Made by a program: the position numbers and the translations under genes. From a virus (taxonomy: Duplodnaviria; Caudoviricetes): 64,000 bases of DNA. This document shows, in pieces, positions 6,752 to 56,785 of this stretch. The stretch is from the IMG/VR virus record IMGVR_UViG_3300020577_008743, positions 33,491-97,490 of that record; one strand, given 5' to 3'. Positions within the stretch are counted from its first letter, which is position 1; each line of letters opens with the position of its first letter. The notes beneath the pieces were generated by a model. The model saw only the letters and a list, made by a program, of their open reading frames with translations, was not told the DNA's origin and made no database searches.

Positions 6752-7013
6752 AAAACTTCTCGAGTTGTTAGACAAGGCCACGGAAGAACAACGAGGCAGC
6801 GAGAGGGCCCTGTACCTGTTGCTGAAACTCAATGTCGCTGTTCTTCCTGAACTGGATTACAGTTTTCACAAGGCTTTCAGACAGTATGATGTAACTGAGT
6901 CCGGTGAAATGGATATGGCAATCTGGCATCTTTTAGGGGTTTCAAAGACGTTCTGGGAGGTGTTCGGGAAAATTACCGGAACAGATGATGAGGAGCCCGG
7001 CGAAGATGGCTAG
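6720..7013 (+). CDS. hypothetical protein
   Basis: ORF overlap-coupled to neighbours. Confidence 0.65.
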   Translation: MKKQPLNPQIEKLLELLDKATEEQRGSERALYLLLKLNVAVLPELDYSFHKAFRQYDVTESGEMDMAIWHLLGVSKTFWEVFGKITGTDDEEPGEDG

Positions 7014-7224
7014 AATAGAACTTATCTTCCCCGAGGAAGGATACCGTGAAGTAATCGGTGAAAGAGCACTCACTTTGGAAGAGGCTTTTGAAGCAGGAGT
7101 ATTTTGGGCGACCAGGCAGTTTCAAAGTAAATTCGGCATGTACTACCGCAAAGATGAGTGGGGAGAAAGAGACTACGTAGATGTAAAGTCCATTTTCCCC
7201 GATCATGTCAGGGACAAGATATGA
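7006..7224 (+). CDS. hypothetical protein
   Basis: ATG at 7006 with AGGAG upstream. Confidence 0.6.
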   Translation: MARIELIFPEEGYREVIGERALTLEEAFEAGVFWATRQFQSKFGMYYRKDEWGERDYVDVKSIFPDHVRDKI

Positions 7225-7397
7225 CCTGTAGGTTTTGCAACAAACCTTCCGTCAGTTACTACGATATATCTTTGACTGGTATTGGCAATTTCATTGAATA
7301 CTGCAAGAATCACCAGGAAGAGGCTCGTCAAAAGCGCGATGAGCATGATAGATATTGGGAAGAAATCCGAAAGGAAGTTATGAGGGAAAATGGCTAA
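7221..7397 (+). CDS. small Cys-containing hypothetical protein
   Basis: ATGA overlap with previous gene; CxxC...CxxH. Confidence 0.6.
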   Translation: MTCRFCNKPSVSYYDISLTGIGNFIEYCKNHQEEARQKRDEHDRYWEEIRKEVMRENG

Positions 7398-7773
7398 AGT
7401 AACCTGGACAATAGAGGATCACATATGTAGTTCTTGCGGGGGTCGAATAGTAAGATCAGCCAAGGGAACTGGTCCCACCCCTGGAGGAAATCCCGTATAC
7501 AAGTGTTCTTTATGTGGTAAAGTTACAACAGAAATGGGAGGTCATTCCCTGTGTTGGTGCGGATATTCACAGAAATCCAATAACAACTCCCTTCCATATA
7601 AATGCGTTCCGTATTCGATATTAGAGAAATACCCTGACGGCTTAAGTTACTTTAAGTTTTGTGGATGTGATCCTAGGCGGGGAGGGGAAGTGGGAGTAAT
7701 GTTAGAGGAGGATTGGAATGAACTTAGAAAAAAAGACATTGCCGTACAAGTCATACCACCAACAGCTGATTGA
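7390..7773 (+). CDS. Cys-rich putative zinc-binding protein
   Basis: CxxCGG, CxxCG, CWCG motifs. Confidence 0.7.
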   Translation: MAKVTWTIEDHICSSCGGRIVRSAKGTGPTPGGNPVYKCSLCGKVTTEMGGHSLCWCGYSQKSNNNSLPYKCVPYSILEKYPDGLSYFKFCGCDPRRGGEVGVMLEEDWNELRKKDIAVQVIPPTAD

Positions 7774-8119
7774 GGCTAACACCAAAACAGAGGCTCTTCG
7801 AGAACTAATCTCAACATTGGGTGAATTGTTGGTAAAAGAACAGGAAGCCCGTATTTTATACGAAGATGCTGTATGGAAAATGGTCAACGATGGTTGGTTA
7901 GTCCACGGTCCGGAAGGCATGAGTGAAGCTCAACAAGCTGTCTATGATGTTTGTAAAAATCATCCGGAGCTAAAAACTCGAATAAAACAAAAGCAAGAAG
8001 AACAGAGAAATTACGAAGAAGCTACGAACAGAAATGTTCGGCTAGAATCCACTCCGGGAACATACGTACCAAATCCCAAACCCCTACCAGCCTGGCGTCG
8101 TTTGTTTCGCTGGCTGTAA
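7718..8119 (+). CDS. hypothetical coiled-coil protein
   Basis: ORF with GAGGAGG RBS. Confidence 0.65.
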   Translation: MNLEKKTLPYKSYHQQLIEANTKTEALRELISTLGELLVKEQEARILYEDAVWKMVNDGWLVHGPEGMSEAQQAVYDVCKNHPELKTRIKQKQEEQRNYEEATNRNVRLESTPGTYVPNPKPLPAWRRLFRWL

Positions 8120-49482: not shown

Positions 49483-51091
49483 CTGATGTATTTTCTTTAG
49501 TAGTATCGTCAACGTATACAAAATCGCCGGAGATAATCATGTGAGCTAAGTTAGCAAAAACAACGCTATGAAAGCTATCATCTGGTATATCTTCATCGTG
49601 TCTAAAAACCCGTCTGCCTGAGTTGGTTTCCTCTTCAAAGATACTCAAACAATCAGACCAAAAAGGCTTTTCGGTTATTTCCCATCTAGGAGCTTCAAAT
49701 CGGTCCCGGCCTAACTTCATCTTTACAAACACGGTGTCCATAGCCATGGTTCTATCAGCGGCGTAATATTGACCTTGCATATCATACCGTAAATAGTGTT
49801 TGGCTGCAACATAATTTATAGGGAAAACTCGGTCACGGCCGAGTTTCTGTTGGAGCAGTTGACATTGAAGAACTCCGACTCCACGGTCTGAGCCAATAGC
49901 TTGGGCTCTGTATTGGGTGAAAATCTGGGCTACTCTATCAACTTGTTCCAAAATATCAACTCCGTTAAGGCGTTGGGAATACATAAGGTACATCTTGCCC
50001 AAGTAATCAAATCCTAAAACAGAGACAATAGTGAATGACTTTTCAGAAGCAGTAACGGACCAATCTACCCCCACAACCACGCTGGTTATACTTCTCCCGT
50101 CGATTTCCCAACCTTTATCCCACTCGGTCCATGAGGGGTTTGAGCAGGCCATAGCTTCGTATTCAGATAAAATGCGGCCTCCTATACCAACGGGGAGACC
50201 AAAGACTTCGTTTGAAAGTTTGGGCAGTGGGTATGTTAGAACTTTCTCTCTGAGTTCCGCCCATTTTTTAGGGGTAGTTCTAAAGGGTATTATAAGCTGA
50301 GGAAGGGAGAAGCCAAGTTTTTCTTTAATGTCCGGTCGACCCGCGATCCATTGACCGGTGGACATATCCAAAAGGGTTTTGCATTTCTGACAACTTGGAC
50401 CCTCATCCCTGGTACACATTGCCATGCATTCTTCAAATGTCTTTGGTATGTTGTGGTAATTACAACTAGGACATTTGACTACCCAGTGACATTGAGACGT
50501 GGTTCTGAACACATACTCCAAGGTATTATTCAAAGTTTTGGACGTACCCATTAGTCGTTTGAAACCATGTTTAGACGCGGAAAGGGTTTCATATACTACC
50601 GGCAAAGCATCGTGGGCTATCCCCTGAACTTCGTCTAGAAAAACAGAGTCCGCCGAAATCCCCCGGATACGGTTTGAATCAGATTCAGTCTCAACATAGG
50701 ACAGGTAAACAATGGAACCATTTTTAAGAGTTTTTTCGCCTACATTCTTTTTTGAGTCTGCATTCCTGAAGTATTTTTTTACCAAAGGAGCATCAAAGAA
50801 ACTATCCAGATACATGGATGAAAATCTGGATGTCTGTTGTTGGAGAGGGGACAAAAACAAAGTTATAAAGTGATTCCTAATTATACTTTTTGTAGTTATG
50901 ATCGCCCCCATGAAAACAGTTTTTCCTATCTGGCGGGATGCCCTACATACTAATAATTCCGGGTCAACGTCATATAGAATTTGCATGGGTTTGTACCCTT
51001 CAAAATCCAACGGTTGTCCTTTTACTTTCAATAGGGCTTTTGCAACCTGAGATCCAGATATATGATGTATTGCATCCAGCGGATTAGTCAT
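49466..51091 (-). CDS. terL: terminase large subunit (GpA-like)
   Basis: SRQIGKT Walker A, RGISAD...LDEVQ Walker B, MGT, CxxC pairs, GVDW nuclease, PDD..HS. Confidence 0.92.
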   Translation of the reverse strand: MTNPLDAIHHISGSQVAKALLKVKGQPLDFEGYKPMQILYDVDPELLVCRASRQIGKTVFMGAIITTKSIIRNHFITLFLSPLQQQTSRFSSMYLDSFFDAPLVKKYFRNADSKKNVGEKTLKNGSIVYLSYVETESDSNRIRGISADSVFLDEVQGIAHDALPVVYETLSASKHGFKRLMGTSKTLNNTLEYVFRTTSQCHWVVKCPSCNYHNIPKTFEECMAMCTRDEGPSCQKCKTLLDMSTGQWIAGRPDIKEKLGFSLPQLIIPFRTTPKKWAELREKVLTYPLPKLSNEVFGLPVGIGGRILSEYEAMACSNPSWTEWDKGWEIDGRSITSVVVGVDWSVTASEKSFTIVSVLGFDYLGKMYLMYSQRLNGVDILEQVDRVAQIFTQYRAQAIGSDRGVGVLQCQLLQQKLGRDRVFPINYVAAKHYLRYDMQGQYYAADRTMAMDTVFVKMKLGRDRFEAPRWEITEKPFWSDCLSIFEEETNSGRRVFRHDEDIPDDSFHSVVFANLAHMIISGDFVYVDDTTKENTSDGNYA

Positions 51092-51842
51092 ATAGTAGCC
51101 CCATTTCTAAAAAACGAGAACGTTTACGTTCTAGACAAAATTGGTATTCGTAACCGGTGTAGATGTAATCATAAAATCGTTTAACATCTTGACGATTTTT
51201 TACGATAACAGAATGTTGGCCATTCGGTATCGGGGAAGTAACTTTCTTCTTTTTTGTGAAATGATTCCTCAGAACGTAAAAAGAAGGGCGTTCCCATTCA
51301 ACATGCTTAGCTATATCAGTAATCAATTGCCAAGAACCGACTATTTCTATGTACGCGTACTTATGATTTTGATCCGTAAAAACTATACAACCATCCCCCT
51401 CAAAAATGCCCCGTAGATACCCCTTCTTAGATTCAACAGTAGGTAAATCATCGAAATTTGAAGGTTGAGTGTAAGTTTTAGCCTGAGATAGGCCCAAGTC
51501 TTTAAGTTTGGAAACTAATTTCTTAGAACAAATACATAATCTTACAGAAGTAGTTTCGTGTGTTTTTTTAGGTACGAGTCTGGTAACGTATGACTTACTC
51601 CCTCCTAAAACCGCGTGAACATAATCTATCAGGGCTTCGTCTCGATCATTCACATCAAACTTTATGTGGTAGGGAATATCTCTGATATACCCATCAGAGC
51701 TTATAAGTCCCAGTATATATCCCTTGTGTTCATCAGACAGATCATCAAAGAAAGTTTCGTCTTTAAATACTCCGTGCAGTCCTGCAGTTTTCGTAGGCAA
51801 CTTATTAATATCTTGGCTCATACCTAATTTTAACATTTCCAT
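51084..51842 (-). CDS. free-standing LAGLIDADG homing endonuclease
   Basis: GYILGLISSDG and GYLRGIFEGDG motifs, LERK end; visibly AT-rich. Confidence 0.88.
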   Translation of the reverse strand: MEMLKLGMSQDINKLPTKTAGLHGVFKDETFFDDLSDEHKGYILGLISSDGYIRDIPYHIKFDVNDRDEALIDYVHAVLGGSKSYVTRLVPKKTHETTSVRLCICSKKLVSKLKDLGLSQAKTYTQPSNFDDLPTVESKKGYLRGIFEGDGCIVFTDQNHKYAYIEIVGSWQLITDIAKHVEWERPSFYVLRNHFTKKKKVTSPIPNGQHSVIVKNRQDVKRFYDYIYTGYEYQFCLERKRSRFLEMGLLYD

Positions 51843-51861: not shown

Positions 51862-51870
51862 TGGTATAAC
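51862..51870 (+). promoter_or_regulatory. TGGTATAA promoter motif for the ubiquitin-like module
   Basis: Recurrent motif upstream of Ubl gene. Confidence 0.6.
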
Positions 51871-51960: not shown

Positions 51961-52161
51961 ATGGCAACTATCACCACCACCGTTCTCGAAGTCGTGTCGA
52001 CCGGTCAAGAATTCAGCATCCCCGGCGATTACACTCCGGAACAACTGGTAACCACGTACGGCGCCAATGTGCCCGGCCTGGCTTCCATGCAGTCCGAAGT
52101 TTCCGTGAGCGGCAGCACGAAGCGCGTGACCTTCCGTCCCCGCACCGGCAACAAGGGCTAA
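51961..52161 (+). CDS. ubiquitin-like protein (PRTRC protein C-like)
   Basis: 66 aa; TPEQL...Y....P.L...F....GNKG C-terminal Gly; next to E2, JAB, E1. Confidence 0.85.
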   Translation: MATITTTVLEVVSTGQEFSIPGDYTPEQLVTTYGANVPGLASMQSEVSVSGSTKRVTFRPRTGNKG

Positions 52162-52179
52162 ACCCCTGGTTTGACGAAG

Positions 52180-52218
52180 AAACAGCTTGGGTCCTTGGGG
52201 ATTCAAGCTGTTTTTTTT
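52180..52218 (+). terminator. strong intrinsic terminator after Ubl
   Basis: AACAGCTTGGGTCC/GGATTCAAGCTGTT plus T8. Confidence 0.85.
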
Positions 52219-52252
52219 AGGTGTAAATTTCCCGTTAAGAGGATAACAAAAT

Positions 52253-52936
52253 ATGTATGAACAAGTTATTGATTCCCTCTATTTAGGATCCCAAACCGAT
52301 GGCCTGTTGAATTCTTCCAACGCCAGGACTAAGTTGAATAGCTTGGGATTGCAACTTTTGTATGACAATGGCCTAGTGACCAAAAGTTTCAAAAGTCCTC
52401 TAAACGTAGTGGACTCAACGGATAGAAAACGAACACAAATTCGGCTGGGCAATATCATCGCTGCCCATCTGTACAAGGTAATTCCGGCGCTGAAGCACAT
52501 GATTGAAACATCTGAATCAATCATGACATTCCCTGCTGCAGATCTTAACTACGCCCCCCCGGTGATAACTCACCGTGACAACAAAGTACAAGTTCCCCTT
52601 ATTCGGTACATGGATCCTTTCGTTGCAACCCCTAAGTACACCAAGGCGAAAAGAGCTCTTGAAAAGTACATCGGAATGCTGAACAGAAAGCTTGCTGGAA
52701 TATGTGGAGTGTCTGGCTCAGGTCTCTGGGTTATTGGGCTTGTCCGTAGAAATTTAGGGGCAGGAAGTATCCACTATTTGGTTCTGGAAATGGAATTCGG
52801 GGTGTCCAACTCGAATGCATTTGCTGCGTTCATGATGGTTCTGACCGACATGCCCTCTCTTCTCAAAATAACGAAAACCATCTCTAGGGTGAGACTTTCC
52901 GAAAGGATCCCGAATGCTGGACTTTTTAGCCGCTGA
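52253..52936 (+). CDS. hypothetical protein in Ub module
   Basis: ORF with GAGG RBS. Confidence 0.7.
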   Translation: MYEQVIDSLYLGSQTDGLLNSSNARTKLNSLGLQLLYDNGLVTKSFKSPLNVVDSTDRKRTQIRLGNIIAAHLYKVIPALKHMIETSESIMTFPAADLNYAPPVITHRDNKVQVPLIRYMDPFVATPKYTKAKRALEKYIGMLNRKLAGICGVSGSGLWVIGLVRRNLGAGSIHYLVLEMEFGVSNSNAFAAFMMVLTDMPSLLKITKTISRVRLSERIPNAGLFSR

Positions 52937-53156
52937 GCTAGAAAAAGCAGAGAGCATCACAGAAACTCTGACAGAACTCAAAAGGGTAGTTGAAGTTGGA
53001 CCAAAGACCTTCAAGGATTTCTCGACGGTATTCACCCTTGCCGTGGGGGGTACTATCGATGCAGTCTCTCCAAAGAGAAGGATCAGTTCCGGCGTCATGA
53101 GATCTCTGATTAACACCGCACAATACTGTGTAACCGATGATGAGGATTTCGTCTAA
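52914..53156 (+). CDS. hypothetical protein in Ub module
   Basis: Coupled ORF, acidic tail. Confidence 0.6.
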   Translation: MLDFLAAELEKAESITETLTELKRVVEVGPKTFKDFSTVFTLAVGGTIDAVSPKRRISSGVMRSLINTAQYCVTDDEDFV

Positions 53157-53158
53157 TC

Positions 53159-53920
53159 ATGCAAGAGCCTAACATTCTGGTAAGCCCCGTTTCTCTGGCA
53201 CCTCCAGGGCCAACAGTTCAACCAGCCGCCCCCGTGAGAGCCCCAGCTCAGCAGGTTACTATGTTCGAATCCCACGTCGAACTAAGGCAGCCCGACGGTA
53301 CCACCAAAGCAATCACTCTGGCCTCCTTCTACGACATTCTCACTCAAGCAATGTCCATCAAGGCGACTTCGGTGAAGAGCAATTTCTTGCTTCCCGCCGG
53401 CTGCTACAACTTCGGAGTGTCGGCAACATCCCTTCAGCTCAGTTGTTACTATCCCGGTAAGGTCCGGGCGATCAAGTTCGACAATTCCAGGGATGGGGAG
53501 AAGATCAAAGAGTTTCAGATTCCGTTTCCCAACATTCTAATCACCCACACTCTGACCAAGTCGAAAGACGAGTGGAGACTTTCGTCTACTCATTACTTCT
53601 GTACAAACCTGGGAGTCAATTCTCTCCCCACCGGTCACCCAATCAGAAATCCAGCGGGGGGAATTTGGCACGTACCTCTTCCGAACATGTACACCGATGG
53701 AAGAATGTGTTATGGGGGAAATTCCCTTATTGTCAACTTTCCCCTGGACAATCTACGCGGTCTGGACTGGTATTTCCGCATGTTGTTTGAATCTCCCTTC
53801 AATACCGACCTGGGAGTACAGGAACTTTCTGACTCCTCCGGAGTGAAGGCCTGGCTCACTCACCTTGACACCATCGGCAGAGCTGGCGGTGAATTCCCCT
53901 ACAAGAAACTCAGAGGCTAA
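53159..53920 (+). CDS. prokaryotic E2 family D (PRTRC protein B-like)
   Basis: IPFPNIL, PLPNMYTDGRMCYG catalytic Cys region, FESPFNTDL. Confidence 0.85.
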   Translation: MQEPNILVSPVSLAPPGPTVQPAAPVRAPAQQVTMFESHVELRQPDGTTKAITLASFYDILTQAMSIKATSVKSNFLLPAGCYNFGVSATSLQLSCYYPGKVRAIKFDNSRDGEKIKEFQIPFPNILITHTLTKSKDEWRLSSTHYFCTNLGVNSLPTGHPIRNPAGGIWHVPLPNMYTDGRMCYGGNSLIVNFPLDNLRGLDWYFRMLFESPFNTDLGVQELSDSSGVKAWLTHLDTIGRAGGEFPYKKLRG

Positions 53921-53924
53921 AGAA

Positions 53925-55232
53925 ATGCAAGTTCTGACTCCACACATTTCGTGCATCGTCGCTCCTTCCGAACTCCAATCCGCAGTGGATCAGGGTTTTG
54001 GGGAAATCTACGTCATCACCCCTAAGGGCCCCTACAAGAGAACGAGGCTCACTCACGGCAGAACTCTGCTTCTGAAAGTGGATTCCATTCCTGGAATCAC
54101 CGACGATGTGAGAGAAGAGATCAACTTCCTTCCGGCCGGCAAGGTGCCGTACGCCCTCTTCAACGACATCGTCAACTTCTTCCGGGCGGTGATGACCGTC
54201 AAGAAAGCCGAGCAAGAAGCCATGGCCCACATTCTGTGGAATCCCACGGCTGGTTATCACATCGGTATTCCCACTCAGTCCGTGTCGAAAGCTTCTGTTC
54301 GGTATGACTTCGACGACGTGAAACAAGGTGACGTGATCGTGGTTGACATTCACAGCCACAACACCATGGGCGCGTTCTTCAGCGGAACCGACAACAACGA
54401 TGATCGTCGGTCCATTTGCTATTCGGGCGTCGTTGGTCATCTTGAAAAACCAGAGCCCATGACGGTCTGGAGATTCAACATCGGCGAAGTAAAGAAGGAG
54501 TGCAAATTCTCGGACATCTTCGACGTGGAAGTGGCGACAACTGAAGTCAGTGAAGAATGGCTGAACAAAGTGACAGTCGGTCACTCCTACTCAGGAGGAC
54601 ACCACTACCCAAAAACCGGCGGGTCTCCGTGGGAAATGACTCCTCGGGGACCCCACTTCTACACGGGGGGACAGGGAGTGGCAAGAAGGGGAAGCGTGGT
54701 AAACGGAGAGGCAAGTAGCAATCAAGCCTCTTTCGGGTTTCTGTCTCATCTTCCTAACGCCAACTCTAGCGTTCATCCCGATGGGCCTTCCAACCTTGAA
54801 CAGGCTCTGGGAGTAACCGCTGATCCTGACCTGTGGAATGACTATGAAGAACTGCTGGGAATTCAATATCCCGAAATGAAAACACAAGCTCCTGGCCCGT
54901 TGGCAGTTACTCACAAGACTATCCCGGCTCCTGAGGATGACTCTGGAATTTCCAACATCAACGCAGGGGCCAAGGATTTCCATCGGGTAAGGCCTGGTGA
55001 TCTGACTGACGTGGACGACGAAGACAACGATCCTGTCGGTTTTGGTAGTCCTGGATCAGAAGCTCATATGATCTGCGAGTATGGCCCCCTTGCTGCAACG
55101 GCCTATGAACAGATTGGCGTCTATCTGCAAGACCTGGAACAAGTGGATGAATTACTGATGGATCTGCTGAGAGATGTCTATGACATGCTTAGCGAATCTG
55201 CTCAAGCAAGGATTCAGACAAACGGGTTTTAA
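53925..55232 (+). CDS. JAB/MPN metallopeptidase (PRTRC protein A-like) with long low-complexity tail
   Basis: E...P.Q.VS, DIHSHNTMGAFFSGTDNNDD JAMM motif; ATG 53925. Confidence 0.9.
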   Translation: MQVLTPHISCIVAPSELQSAVDQGFGEIYVITPKGPYKRTRLTHGRTLLLKVDSIPGITDDVREEINFLPAGKVPYALFNDIVNFFRAVMTVKKAEQEAMAHILWNPTAGYHIGIPTQSVSKASVRYDFDDVKQGDVIVVDIHSHNTMGAFFSGTDNNDDRRSICYSGVVGHLEKPEPMTVWRFNIGEVKKECKFSDIFDVEVATTEVSEEWLNKVTVGHSYSGGHHYPKTGGSPWEMTPRGPHFYTGGQGVARRGSVVNGEASSNQASFGFLSHLPNANSSVHPDGPSNLEQALGVTADPDLWNDYEELLGIQYPEMKTQAPGPLAVTHKTIPAPEDDSGISNINAGAKDFHRVRPGDLTDVDDEDNDPVGFGSPGSEAHMICEYGPLAATAYEQIGVYLQDLEQVDELLMDLLRDVYDMLSESAQARIQTNGF

Positions 55233-55291
55233 AGGTATAAGGGGGTGTAATTCCCCCGCCCCCTTCCCTTCCTTTGAAAAGGTAAGTCATT

Positions 55292-56746
55292 ATGTTTGCG
55301 TACAAATCAACCTTCATCCCCAGAAACTTCGTAGTGATCGGAGCTGGTGGAACGGGATCCAGACTGATCCCAATGCTGGCTCAATTCATCAAAACTCTGG
55401 GCTGGGTTATCAATCCCCAGATCATCATCTTCGATCCGGACGTGGTTGAAGTAAAAAACCTGGTCAGACAGAACTTCATCCCCCGTGACGTCGGCAAGAA
55501 CAAGGCACAAGTCCTGGCCGAGAGATACTCCAAGCACTACGAGATGAATATCTACGCAGTTGCTGGAGCAGTAGGACCGACTAACGCCGTAACCAAAGAA
55601 ATGACTGCGGCCGGCATTCCTAATATCAGCAGCATTTCCGGCATTGCGGACGCTGTCTTTTTCCTCTGTGTGGATTCGGTAAAAGCCAGATTGGATATCT
55701 TGACCAATATCTACTCTGTCCCAAGAAGATGTCTGGTTCTCGATGCAGGCAACGAAGATGACTTCGGACAGATCACCGTTCACACTTCTCCTGCTTCCGC
55801 GTATGGGGCTCAAAGTCTTCTGGATGGTTTGAAGGAATTGCCGTTGCCTGGTAATCTGGTGCCAGTGGATGCACAGGTGACGGAAATCCCCATGGACATG
55901 GAGGACTACTTGACCTTAGAACCAGGAACAGCCAGTGGGGGCTGTGCAGACCTGGACCAGACTCTTGCTGTCAACGCCCAGATGGCAGTGAATATGTTGT
56001 CAATCTTTCAGAACTTCGTCTACAACAAACCGATTTTCTATCGTCGACTCAACGTATCCTTGCTGGAAGGTGCTCAGCCACAGTACATCACTCTCCCCTG
56101 GATACTGTCAGTTCACGACTCTACCCGCTGGGAGAAATCTCTGGATAAGACCTCTCCCTTCTTCAAGGAACGATCAAGTCTACGGAGCGTGTGCCTGAAC
56201 GCAGTTACCAGCCATCACATGGCAGAGACTTTGGCTAAGACTCTGGCTCCACAGATGATCGATATTCGCGAAGCTGCAGGATTGGAGATTCCCAAGTACT
56301 TTCAAACGGGTACGGCGTATTGGTCAGCTGCCAAGAAGAAGGAGCATGTTCGAAAGAAGCTGAGAGAGATTGCCCCTGACTTGAAGGAAGACGAGTTTCT
56401 AGCCGGCCTGACTGAGAACGACATTCGGTTCGTTATTGAATCTCGGGATGCCGCTTCCCGCATCAAAGCCAAATTCGAAGAGGTCAAGACGAGATTGGAC
56501 TTGGCAGCGGAGAATACAGCATTAGAAGCTCGTATTTCAGCGCAGCAAGCCCAGATAATGGCTGAGGCGACTCAACGGGCTGTGAGAGCAGCGGAACAAG
56601 ACGCGGGGACACAAGCTGAAGTGATAGAGGAAATAGCTCGTGCTAACGAAGAATTCGACACCAGAAACTTCACCCCCATGGGAGCTGCTAGACCAAGACG
56701 ACCCAGAGCTGCCGCAGTTACCAATGTAACAATCCGTACCATCTAA
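55292..56746 (+). CDS. ThiF/E1-like adenylyltransferase with C-terminal helical extension
   Basis: VIGAGGTG, DPDVVE.KNLVRQNF, G.NKA, CVDSVKAR, DAGNE, GCAD. Confidence 0.92.
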   Translation: MFAYKSTFIPRNFVVIGAGGTGSRLIPMLAQFIKTLGWVINPQIIIFDPDVVEVKNLVRQNFIPRDVGKNKAQVLAERYSKHYEMNIYAVAGAVGPTNAVTKEMTAAGIPNISSISGIADAVFFLCVDSVKARLDILTNIYSVPRRCLVLDAGNEDDFGQITVHTSPASAYGAQSLLDGLKELPLPGNLVPVDAQVTEIPMDMEDYLTLEPGTASGGCADLDQTLAVNAQMAVNMLSIFQNFVYNKPIFYRRLNVSLLEGAQPQYITLPWILSVHDSTRWEKSLDKTSPFFKERSSLRSVCLNAVTSHHMAETLAKTLAPQMIDIREAAGLEIPKYFQTGTAYWSAAKKKEHVRKKLREIAPDLKEDEFLAGLTENDIRFVIESRDAASRIKAKFEEVKTRLDLAAENTALEARISAQQAQIMAEATQRAVRAAEQDAGTQAEVIEEIARANEEFDTRNFTPMGAARPRRPRAAAVTNVTIRTI

Positions 56747-56752
56747 CGGTGC

Positions 56753-56785
56753 AAAAAGAAAGCCGGAAAACATCCCGGCTTTTTT
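56753..56785. terminator. bidirectional terminator
   Basis: A-run, AGCCGG/CCGGCT hairpin, T-run between convergent genes. Confidence 0.8.

What the first reader, a model, noticed from the sequence alone, without database searches (positions are those of the whole stretch)
51961..56746. Phage-encoded ubiquitin-like conjugation module (Ubl, E2-D, JAB, E1) inserted against the late genes
Seen: Ubl ending in GNKG, E2 with a conserved Cys, JAMM peptidase and ThiF E1 with GCAD, plus two unknown ORFs, form a + strand island with early-type promoters. Known: this is the core of the PRTRC (ParB-related, ThiF-related cassette) system; other bacterial E1/E2/JAB systems (CBASS Cap2/Cap3, Bil) act in anti-phage defence by protein conjugation. 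No ParB or recognisable PRTRC E/F is present. Inference: the phage tags host or viral proteins, or deconjugates host defence Ubls; ORFs 52253 and 52914 may select substrates.
Basis: partly seen in the sequence, partly recalled or inferred. Interest (0 to 1): 0.75.

Follow-up and report, generated by a model that had tools for sequence, protein, structure and literature searches.

The report
Phage-core ubiquitin-like tagging operon (PRTRC-type)
This large lytic phage, like its whole lineage including culturable Salmonella and Vibrio phages, carries an intact six-gene kit for attaching a small ubiquitin-like protein to other proteins; the kit is a diverged relative of the never-tested plasmid "PRTRC" cassette, and what it tags is unknown.

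Summary
Observation confirmed. Window 51961-56746 (+) holds six genes. They are a 66-aa beta-grasp Ubl ending GNKG, two unknown proteins (X 227 aa, Y 80 aa), an E2-like protein with an invariant Cys, a JAMM peptidase and a ThiF-type E1.

The order Ubl-X-Y-E2-JAB-E1 recurs between the terminase and the same minus-strand genes in about 33 IMG/VR contigs, Salmonella phage Arash and Vibrio phage D69. It is therefore a lineage core module, not a recent insertion.

The Ubl, E2, JAB and E1 are best matched by PRTRC proteins C, B, A and ThiF, in the same order. All score below curated cut-offs. No ParB, PRTRC E or PRTRC F is detectable; X and Y replace them and evolve about twice as fast as the enzymes.

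Relatives encode tandem di- and tri-Ubl precursors and Ubls with short tails after the final Gly. This argues for JAB trimming and Gly-dependent conjugation.

A conserved TGGTATAA promoter motif and a terminator hairpin right after the Ubl gene are shared across the lineage.

The target and biological role remain unknown; I favour host or defence proteins over virion proteins.

This scan has already reported the same module on at least eight other genomes. I found no paper describing it.

The parts
51862..51869 (+). TGGTATAA promoter-like motif (extended -10 type), 99 nt upstream of the Ubl start
   Evidence: There are 9 copies in the window against 1.9 expected, 8 of them on the + strand. The exact 8-mer lies 68-154 nt upstream of the Ubl gene in 23 of 25 related loci, including Arash and Vibrio phage D69.
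51961..52161 (+). Ubiquitin-like protein, 66 aa, C-terminus ...TGNKG followed directly by the stop codon
   Evidence: The AF2 model has pLDDT 88.7, a beta-beta-alpha-beta-beta topology and a flexible tail. The best structural matches are beta-grasp proteins (GB1, ubiquitin-like proteins, MoaD), Z 4-5.5. G63, K65 and G66 are invariant in 16 homologues. hhalign against PRTRC protein C gives probability 94%, E 1.2e-7.
52176..52218 (+). Terminator or attenuator hairpin with a U-run, immediately after the Ubl gene
   Evidence: The fold has a 19-bp stem, -28.2 kcal/mol, z -3.96. A structured intergenic region with a T-run of 5 or more follows the Ubl gene in 22 of 25 related loci.
52253..52936 (+). 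Protein X, 227 aa, unknown fold. It sits where PRTRC protein F would sit but is not detectably related to it.
   Evidence: jackhmmer links it to the gene at the same position in 22 locus ORFs. There are 217 family representatives in 1.84 billion proteins. No Pfam, NCBIfam or PHROG hit was found. The AF2 model has pLDDT 65 and the best structural match is Z 6.2. hhalign against PRTRC_F gives probability 0.05%.
52914..53156 (+). Protein Y, 80 aa, ending ...DDEDFV
   Evidence: A gene of about 85 aa sits at this position in nearly all loci. The family's invariant feature is a C-terminal (E/D)DF(V/Y/F). hhalign of window Y against the family aligns end to end, E 4.6e-5. No consistent Pfam family was found.
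53159..53920 (+). E2-like protein (Prok-E2_D / PRTRC B type), predicted catalytic Cys184
   Evidence: Prok-E2_D scores 6e-5 here and is hit by 22 of 24 relatives. P124-N125, P173, N176, C184, G186 and N188 are invariant or nearly invariant.
53925..55232 (+). JAMM/JAB metallopeptidase (PRTRC A type) with a tail of about 240 aa that is mostly low-complexity
   Evidence: Prok-JAB scores 4.9e-9 and PRTRC_A 4.9e-20. The HSHx7SxxD motif is present. The start at 53925 is inferred from relatives.
55292..56746 (+). ThiF-type E1 (PRTRC ThiF type), with an adenylation domain of about 280 aa and a variable tail of about 200 aa
   Evidence: ThiF scores 5.9e-15 and PRTRC_ThiF 1.1e-23. GxGGTG, R59-Q60, D128, D151xGN and C218 are invariant. 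The profile hits the NEDD8 E1 (UBA3), MccB and UBA7 in the PDB.
56759..56782 (.). Bidirectional terminator between the E1 gene and the convergent - strand genes
   Evidence: A 10-bp stem is flanked by an A-run and a T-run.

Best explanation
The region is a complete, intact ubiquitin-like protein-conjugation cascade of PRTRC ancestry. It is a core module of the Arash-like large lytic phages.

Proposed mechanism:
1. The Ubl gene is transcribed from a lineage-conserved TGGTATAA promoter. This motif class otherwise marks the + strand non-structural genes of the window.
2. A hairpin terminator after the Ubl gene lets only part of the transcription run on into X-Y-E2-JAB-E1. The tag would then be made in excess over its enzymes.
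3. The JAB peptidase trims Ubl precursors to expose the terminal Gly. Relatives need this step because they encode di-Ubls, tri-Ubls and Ubls with tails. JAB probably also removes the tag again.
4. The E1 adenylates Gly66, probably via a thioester on Cys218.
5. The Ubl passes to Cys184 of the E2 and then to lysines of a target.
6. The co-conserved but fast-evolving X and Y act as specificity or adaptor factors.

What is shown: the gene set, the catalytic motifs, the Ubl fold, homology to PRTRC C/B/A/ThiF, the precursor forms, and the conserved regulatory layout.

What is inferred: every biochemical step, the roles of X and Y, and the target. My estimate for the target is about 40% host or host-defence proteins (takeover or counter-defence), about 30-35% the phage's own proteins, and the rest other.
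For: - Gene set and motifs.
- Ubl: the AF2 model is a beta-grasp. The family always ends G(T/N)KG.
- Precursor forms: a tandem di-Ubl in L032, a triple Ubl in Vibrio phage D69, and 21 clusters of 129-167 aa, four of which were read and are tandem di-Ubls, several carrying Pfam Prok_Ub. Short tails follow the final Gly in L027, L029, L033, L035 and L038.
- Homology to PRTRC: Ubl against PRTRC_C, 94%. The best NCBIfam hits are PRTRC_A and PRTRC_ThiF. The canonical cassettes have the same C-?-B-A-ThiF order.
- Lineage-wide synteny.
- Promoter and attenuator conserved in 23 and 22 of 25 loci.
- X and Y have a median pairwise identity of 19%, against 33-55% for the enzymes and flanking genes.
- This E1 type was found in only 1 locus among 185,579 prokaryote species genomes.
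- The Arash GenBank record marks the E1 and E2 homologues as detected by mass spectrometry (PMC10585845). They are therefore expressed.
- A canonical PRTRC on a plasmid sits next to an antirestriction gene, a DNA methylase and ParB. This is compatible with a role in establishment or anti-defence.
Against: - No biochemical evidence exists for this module or for any PRTRC cassette that I could find.
- The NCBIfam PRTRC models and the window's own Prok-E2_D hit score below their curated cut-offs; Pfam ThiF and Prok-JAB score above theirs.
- X and Y have no recognisable fold or family, so calling them adaptors is only inference.
- The module lies among virion and packaging genes, and its proteins were found in Arash particle preparations. 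This would fit a virion-directed role equally well. However, that proteome lists 116 proteins, including ribonucleotide reductase.
- The timing class of the TGGTATAA promoters has not been measured.
Confidence: 0.6

Rival explanations
1. Virion or assembly tagging. The Ubl is attached to the phage's own structural or assembly proteins, for example as a maturation, cross-linking, targeting or quality-control step. The enzymes travel with, or act on, particles.
For: The module always lies between the terminase operon and conserved - strand genes whose Arash homologues are annotated as structural. The Arash E1 and E2 homologues, and per the paper's Table 2 further module proteins, were detected in purified particle preparations. 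A precedent exists for a Ubl plus JAB acting in tail assembly of lambdoid phages (PMC1779556).
Against: The module is on the opposite strand. It carries the promoter motif of the + strand non-structural genes, whereas the structural block 18-52 kb has almost none of these motifs. The Arash 'structural proteome' covers 116 of 272 proteins, including ribonucleotide reductase and ligases, so detection there does not prove packaging. The fast evolution of X and Y is less expected for partners of conserved virion proteins.
Confidence: 0.25
2. Inter-phage competition. The module works like the bacterial Bil system but for the phage's benefit, tagging proteins of co-infecting or resident phages to exclude them.
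For: [quoted passage not shown] The component list is the same.
Against: Defence-type cargo is usually variable between related phages. This module is a fixed syntenic core in about 35 loci. No PADLOC defence model matches the Ubl, E2 or JAB. Only the nucleotide-binding part of the E1 matches Cap2-type models weakly.
Confidence: 0.08
3. Sulfur relay only. The Ubl is a ThiS/MoaD/TtuB-like thiocarboxylate carrier for a cofactor or nucleoside thiolation, and no protein is tagged.
For: The E1 is of ThiF type and weakly matches ThiF and MoeB models. MoaD is among the structural neighbours of the Ubl. The phage also carries tRNA genes and RNA-repair genes (earlier first-reader notes on this window).
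Against: An E2-like protein with an invariant Cys and a JAMM peptidase are strictly co-conserved. Poly-Ubl precursors are typical of conjugated tags. No rhodanese domain, cysteine desulfurase, ThiG, MoaE or TtuA-type acceptor is in the module.
Confidence: 0.05

Closest known systems
PRTRC cassette (ParB-Related, ThiF-Related Cassette; NCBIfam TIGR03735-03742), for example Ralstonia phage Dina gp02-gp07, a Piscinibacter gummiphilus plasmid, and Burkholderia phage BgVeeders33
   Same: The Ubl has the same C-terminal signature (...F-R-x-x-x-G-T-K-G); hhalign gives 94%. The E2 is of Prok-E2_D / PRTRC_B type. The JAB is best matched by PRTRC_A and the E1 by PRTRC_ThiF. The order Ubl - large unknown - E2 - JAB - E1 is identical. 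Both are carried by mobile elements.
   Different: The NCBIfam PRTRC models all score below their curated cut-offs. No ParB, PRTRC_E or PRTRC_F is present. The unrelated X and the extra small Y take their place. The JAB and E1 carry long tails. The module is a fixed core of large lytic phages rather than cargo of plasmids, ICEs or small temperate phages. PRTRC itself has no tested function that I could find.
Bil (bacterial ISG15-like) anti-phage systems, types I and II
   Same: Both have separate Ubl, E2, JAB-type peptidase and E1 genes, with Gly-dependent conjugation to lysines. The solved bacterial E1-E2-Ubl complex 8tyz is among the Ubl's structural neighbours (Z 3.9).
   Different: This module is encoded by the phage, not the host. 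No PADLOC hit was found for the Ubl, E2 or JAB. X and Y are additional components. The E2 family differs (Prok-E2_D).
Type II CBASS Cap2 (E2-E1 fusion) and Cap3 (JAB)
   Same: Both use E1 adenylation plus E2 chemistry with a JAB antagonist. The E1 N-terminus weakly matches Cap2-type models (9.6e-8).
   Different: There is no CD-NTase. The E1 and E2 are separate proteins. A dedicated Ubl is the substrate.
Bub (6E/DUF6527) bacterial ubiquitination-like operons
   Same: [quoted passage not shown]
   Different: No family-level match was found here. The E2 type differs, and Bub operons are carried by cells, not phages.
Lambdoid and T1-like tail assembly proteins I (Ubl) and K (JAB + NlpC/P60)
   Same: Both are phage-encoded pairs of a Ubl with a conserved terminal Gly and a JAB peptidase (PMC1779556).
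   Different: Those phages have no E1 or E2, so the Ubl is processed rather than conjugated. Here a full activation and transfer cascade is present.

Membership tests
PRTRC cassette | ThiF-family E1 matching TIGR03736 (PRTRC_ThiF) above its cut-off | tested here: not met
   It is the best NCBIfam hit, but scores 83.9 bits against a cut-off of 144.75.
PRTRC cassette | JAB peptidase matching TIGR03735 (PRTRC_A) | tested here: not met
   It is the only NCBIfam hit, at 71.9 bits against a cut-off of 101.8. The JAMM motif is intact.
PRTRC cassette | E2-like protein B (TIGR03737; Pfam Prok-E2_D) | tested here: inconclusive
   PRTRC_B scores only 12.3 bits. Prok-E2_D scores 23.2 bits against a cut-off of 25 in the window, but 22 of 24 relatives hit it, best 5.4e-10.
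PRTRC cassette | Ubl protein C (TIGR03738; Pfam Prok_Ub) ending in Gly | tested here: met
   hhalign of the Ubl family against a PRTRC_C gives 94%, E 1.2e-7, with a shared ...GTKG end. 3 of 16 relatives hit TIGR03738 weakly. Di-Ubl relatives carry PF14454.
PRTRC cassette | Gene order C - F - B - A - ThiF | tested here: met
   The order Ubl - X - (Y) - E2 - JAB - E1 parallels the cassettes of Dina, Piscinibacter and BgVeeders33. X only occupies the position of F.
PRTRC cassette | Proteins E and F | tested here: not met
   No TIGR03741 or TIGR03742 match at E<=1 in the 97.5-kb record. X against PRTRC_F by hhalign gives probability 0.05%. None of the 20 plus 10 X-family members scanned hits NCBIfam.
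PRTRC cassette | Linked ParB-family protein | tested here: not met
   No ParB_N match in the record. The record is estimated to be only about 63% complete.
Bil / CBASS type II / other catalogued defence systems | Matches to the PADLOC models of the system's components | tested here: inconclusive
   Only the first ~100 residues of the E1 (the nucleotide-binding region) match Cap2-type 'E1-E2' models (best 9.6e-8). There are no hits for the Ubl, X, Y, E2 or JAB. PADLOC-DB dates from 2023.
CBASS type II | CD-NTase plus an E2-E1 fusion (Cap2) | tested here: not met
   The E1 and E2 are separate genes, and no nucleotidyltransferase is in the module.
ThiS/MoaD sulfur-carrier systems | A sulfur-acceptor or sulfurtransferase partner (ThiG, MoaE, rhodanese, TtuA) | tested here: not met
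   No such domain is present in the six proteins.

The most novel reading that the evidence does not exclude
Large lytic phages run their own ubiquitin-like conjugation cascade during infection to tag host proteins, such as defence or takeover targets. The rapidly evolving X and Y would serve as substrate selectors. This would make the module the first virus-encoded complete Ubl system of prokaryotic viruses, and it would give the orphan PRTRC family a function.
Probability: 0.35. Interest if true: 0.85.

Novelty: new variant of a known kind. Interest (0 to 1): 0.65.

Why it matters
Ubiquitin-like conjugation in bacteria has so far been shown only for host-encoded anti-phage systems (CBASS type II, Bil, Bub). 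Here the full cascade is on the virus side. It is fixed in a whole lineage and is present in phages that can be grown on Salmonella and Vibrio.

Finding its target would show whether phages use protein tagging for takeover, counter-defence or particle assembly. It would also give a first function to the widespread but untested PRTRC family of plasmids and ICEs.

The conserved promoter-Ubl-terminator layout and the poly-Ubl precursors give concrete, testable handles.

Tried and rejected
- A megablast of the module against 50,697 phage records found nothing. A single-protein scan of IMG/VR found nothing. The alignment-based scan worked.
The contigs of the metagenomic E1 homologues, several of them 170-200 kb long, therefore could not be inspected.
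- X: no Pfam, NCBIfam, PHROG or PADLOC hit, no ESM Atlas lead, no Foldseek match, best VIA Z 6.2. The model has pLDDT of only 65, so I make no claim of a new fold.
- X as a diverged PRTRC_F is rejected at the sensitivity of hhalign. The PRTRC_F side had only 3 sequences.
- Y: no consistent Pfam family.
- The E2 profile against PDB sequences found nothing.
- Longer relatives of the Ubl were searched for fusions to other domains that might reveal the target. The four of 21 longer relatives that I read are tandem Ubls; the other 17, of similar length, carry either the Prok_Ub domain or no precomputed Pfam domain.
- The long JAB, E1 and E2 variants in L008, L021, L031, L033 and L037 carry no extra Pfam domain.
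- The E2 alignment was too variable for a genome-contig scan. The E1 alignment was used instead.
- No Rfam family lies in the window's module.
- 'Recent insertion' is rejected because of the synteny.


Full report
**1. What is there**

The window is the right-hand 64 kb of a 97.5-kb IMG/VR virus record, estimated at about 63% complete.

Pfam and NCBIfam recognise three of the six:
- 53159-53920 as Prok-E2_D (6e-5).
- The next gene as Prok-JAB (4.9e-9) and PRTRC_A (4.9e-20).
- 55292-56746 as ThiF (5.9e-15) and PRTRC_ThiF (1.1e-23).

The NCBIfam PRTRC hits and the window's Prok-E2_D hit are below their curated cut-offs; Pfam ThiF and Prok-JAB are above theirs. PHROGs and PADLOC add nothing beyond weak Cap2-type matches to the first ~100 residues of the E1.

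The JAB ORF is open from 53865. Relatives align from its residue 21, so the gene starts at the ATG at 53925, four bases after the E2 stop, with AGAGG 9 nt upstream.

**2. It is a lineage core, not an insertion**

The nearest cultured relatives are Salmonella phage Arash (180.8 kb) and Vibrio phages D69, D181 and D148 (about 187 kb). The E1 has more than 336 homologues in metagenomes. An alignment of 30 of them (A1) retrieved 35 IMG/VR loci, many on contigs of 100-200 kb.

- In almost all of these loci, and in Arash and D69, the order on one strand is Ubl, a 200-355-aa protein, a protein of about 85 aa, E2, JAB, E1.
- The block is bracketed by the terminase operon on one side and by homologues of window genes 56789, 57199, 57736, 58629, the ligase and the helicase on the other, all on the opposite strand.
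- The module's G+C (0.49-0.51) is like that of the other + strand blocks of the window.
- Scanning 185,579 prokaryote species genomes with the same E1 patterns gave a single 6.8-kb MAG contig. This form therefore appears to be essentially confined to phages, within the limits of a pattern-based scan.

**3. The tag**

- The 66-aa protein folds with pLDDT 88.7 as beta-beta-alpha-beta-beta with a floppy tail. Its structural neighbours are beta-grasp proteins (GB1, ubiquitin-like proteins, MoaD, SUMO, ISG15 and a bacterial Bil-type Ubl), at Z 4-5.5, which is as much as so small a domain can give.
- In 16 homologues, G63, K65 and G66 are invariant, and most genes stop right after ...G(T/N)KG.
- Some relatives have a few extra residues after the Gly (L027, L029, L033, L035, L038). 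L032 encodes a head-to-tail di-Ubl, and Vibrio phage D69 encodes three Ubl domains, each ending ...TGTKG.
- A search for longer relatives found 21 clusters of 129-167 aa, several carrying Pfam Prok_Ub; the four I read are all tandem di-Ubls.
- These precursors make sense only if a peptidase cuts after the Gly, as with polyubiquitin. Iyer et al. predicted this for bacterial cassettes (PMC1779556).
- A canonical PRTRC protein C ends ...ITFRRAVGTKG, and hhalign against the phage family gives 94%, E 1.2e-7.

**4. The enzymes**

- E2: P124-N125 and, about 60 residues later, P173-x-x-N176...C184-x-G-x-N188 and SPFNxDL are invariant or nearly so in 24-31 sequences. 22 of 24 members hit Prok-E2_D.
- JAB: HSHNTMGAFFSGTD fits the JAMM motif HxHx7SxxD and is intact in 34 of 41 ORFs. 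The exceptions are genes split by an intron-like insert (see section 8).
The profile finds UBA3, MccB, UBA7 and SAE2 among solved structures.

**5. The two unknowns**

- X (227 aa here, usually about 300 aa) is homologous to the gene at the same position in 22 locus ORFs. It has 217 representatives in a library of 1.84 billion proteins.
- It has no family, no language-model neighbour and no convincing fold match.
- It sits where PRTRC protein F sits in Ralstonia phage Dina, a Piscinibacter plasmid and Burkholderia phage BgVeeders33, but hhalign sees no relation.
- Y (80 aa) belongs to the family of about 85 aa at the same position. Its only invariant feature is the C-terminal (E/D)DF(V/Y/F); the window copy ends ...DDEDFV.
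- Median pairwise identity across 13-17 loci is 19% for X and for Y. It is 42% for the Ubl, 33% for the E2, 38% for the JAB, 43% for the E1, 55% for TerL and 36-45% for the flanking genes.
- Strict co-conservation with rapid divergence is what one expects of specificity factors facing a variable partner. That is inference.
- A recent preprint reports a PRTRC protein B in a Phocaeicola prophage that is diversified by a retroelement (10.64898/2026.10.01.756045). This again points to variable target recognition in this system family.

**6. Regulation**

- TGGTATAA lies 99 nt upstream of the Ubl ATG. The window has 9 copies against 1.9 expected, 8 on the + strand. Six of these lie in the + strand left arm, which holds tRNA and RNA-repair genes.
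- The exact 8-mer lies 68-154 nt upstream of the Ubl gene in 23 of 25 loci, including Arash and D69.
- Directly after the Ubl stop is a 19-bp hairpin with a U-run (-28.2 kcal/mol, z -3.96). A structured spacer with a T-run of 5 or more follows the Ubl gene in 22 of 25 loci.
- A bidirectional terminator closes the module after the E1.
- This layout would give much Ubl and little enzyme. It also places the module in the promoter class of the non-structural genes. Whether that class is early has not been measured.

**7. Function**

- The biochemical reading (JAB trimming, E1 activation, E2 transfer, JAB reversal) rests on intact motifs and on analogy with CBASS, Bil and Bub (PMC11601603). Nothing has been tested for PRTRC in the literature I could search.
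- For a host-directed role: the promoter class, the fast evolution of X and Y, the restriction to mobile elements, and the company PRTRC keeps on a plasmid (an antirestriction gene, a methylase and ParB).
- For a virion-directed role: the fixed position among packaging and virion genes, and the detection of module proteins in Arash particle preparations. GenBank marks gp246c (E1) and gp248c (E2) as 'structural', and Table 2 of PMC10585845 lists Gp246-249 and Gp251.
- Two cautions apply to that proteomic evidence. The gene numbering of the table and of GenBank may be offset. That proteome also holds 116 proteins, including ribonucleotide reductases. I therefore take it as proof of expression only.

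**8. Seen in passing**

- In L006, L007 and L010 the JAB gene is interrupted inside the catalytic motif (…DIHSH | NTMG…) by about 1.1 kb. The insert carries a homing-endonuclease ORF on the other strand and a sub-threshold group I intron match (33 bits, E 2.5e-6) that starts at the exon end.
- Arash's annotated gp251c is in the wrong frame. The real Ubl is L001:107-307.

**9. Earlier notes and verdict**

The scan's earlier notes describe this same module on at least eight other genomes and reach the same general reading. My checks on this window agree with them.

Verdict: a real, intact, conserved phage Ubl-conjugation module. It is a new variant of the PRTRC kind, and its target is unknown.

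Noticed in passing
L006:5966-7114 (also L007 and L010): In three related phages the JAB gene is split inside the JAMM motif (…VDIHSH | NTMGSFFS…) by an insert of about 1.1 kb. The insert carries a homing-endonuclease ORF on the opposite strand and a sub-threshold Rfam group I intron match (33 bits, E 2.5e-6) that begins at the exon end.
   Followed up: partly
window 51084-51842 (-): A free-standing homing-endonuclease-like ORF (phrog_4645 'endonuclease', 2.7e-24; two LAGLIDADG-like motifs) overlaps the terminase start by 8 nt. None of the related loci has a homologue at this position. Weak homologues lie elsewhere in L006, L007 and L038.
   Followed up: partly
L001:102-320 (Salmonella phage Arash, OQ632216): The annotated gp251c (72 aa) appears to be in the wrong frame. 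The overlapping frame L001:107-307 encodes a 66-aa Ubl ending ...RRTGTKG.
   Followed up: yes
L002:3421-4212 and 7001-7978 (Vibrio phage D69, OZ195729): VPHD69_0307 is a triple Ubl precursor. Separately, the annotated E1 CDS starts at 7223, although the tblastn match to the E1 N-terminus (with the GxGGTG motif) begins at 7001. The start therefore seems to be annotated too far downstream.
   Followed up: partly
window 100, 1833, 2061, 10193, 12441, 16177, 51862, 63259 (+) and 38725 (-): TGGTATAA occurs 9 times against 1.9 expected, almost only on the + strand and mostly ahead of non-structural genes and RNA genes. The same exact 8-mer precedes the Ubl gene in Salmonella, Vibrio and metagenomic relatives. 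It looks like a lineage-wide promoter element, read by host sigma-70 (extended -10) or by a phage sigma factor.
   Followed up: partly
L037:5207-11057: One relative has a 400-aa E2 and a 1046-aa E1 ORF in which the ThiF match is interrupted. No Pfam domain explains the extra sequence. An intein or another insertion is possible.
   Followed up: no
L041:1827-2216 (Burkholderia phage BgVeeders33): This canonical PRTRC protein C has about 65 residues after ...AVGTKG, so the classical cassette also has Ubl precursors that need trimming.
   Followed up: no
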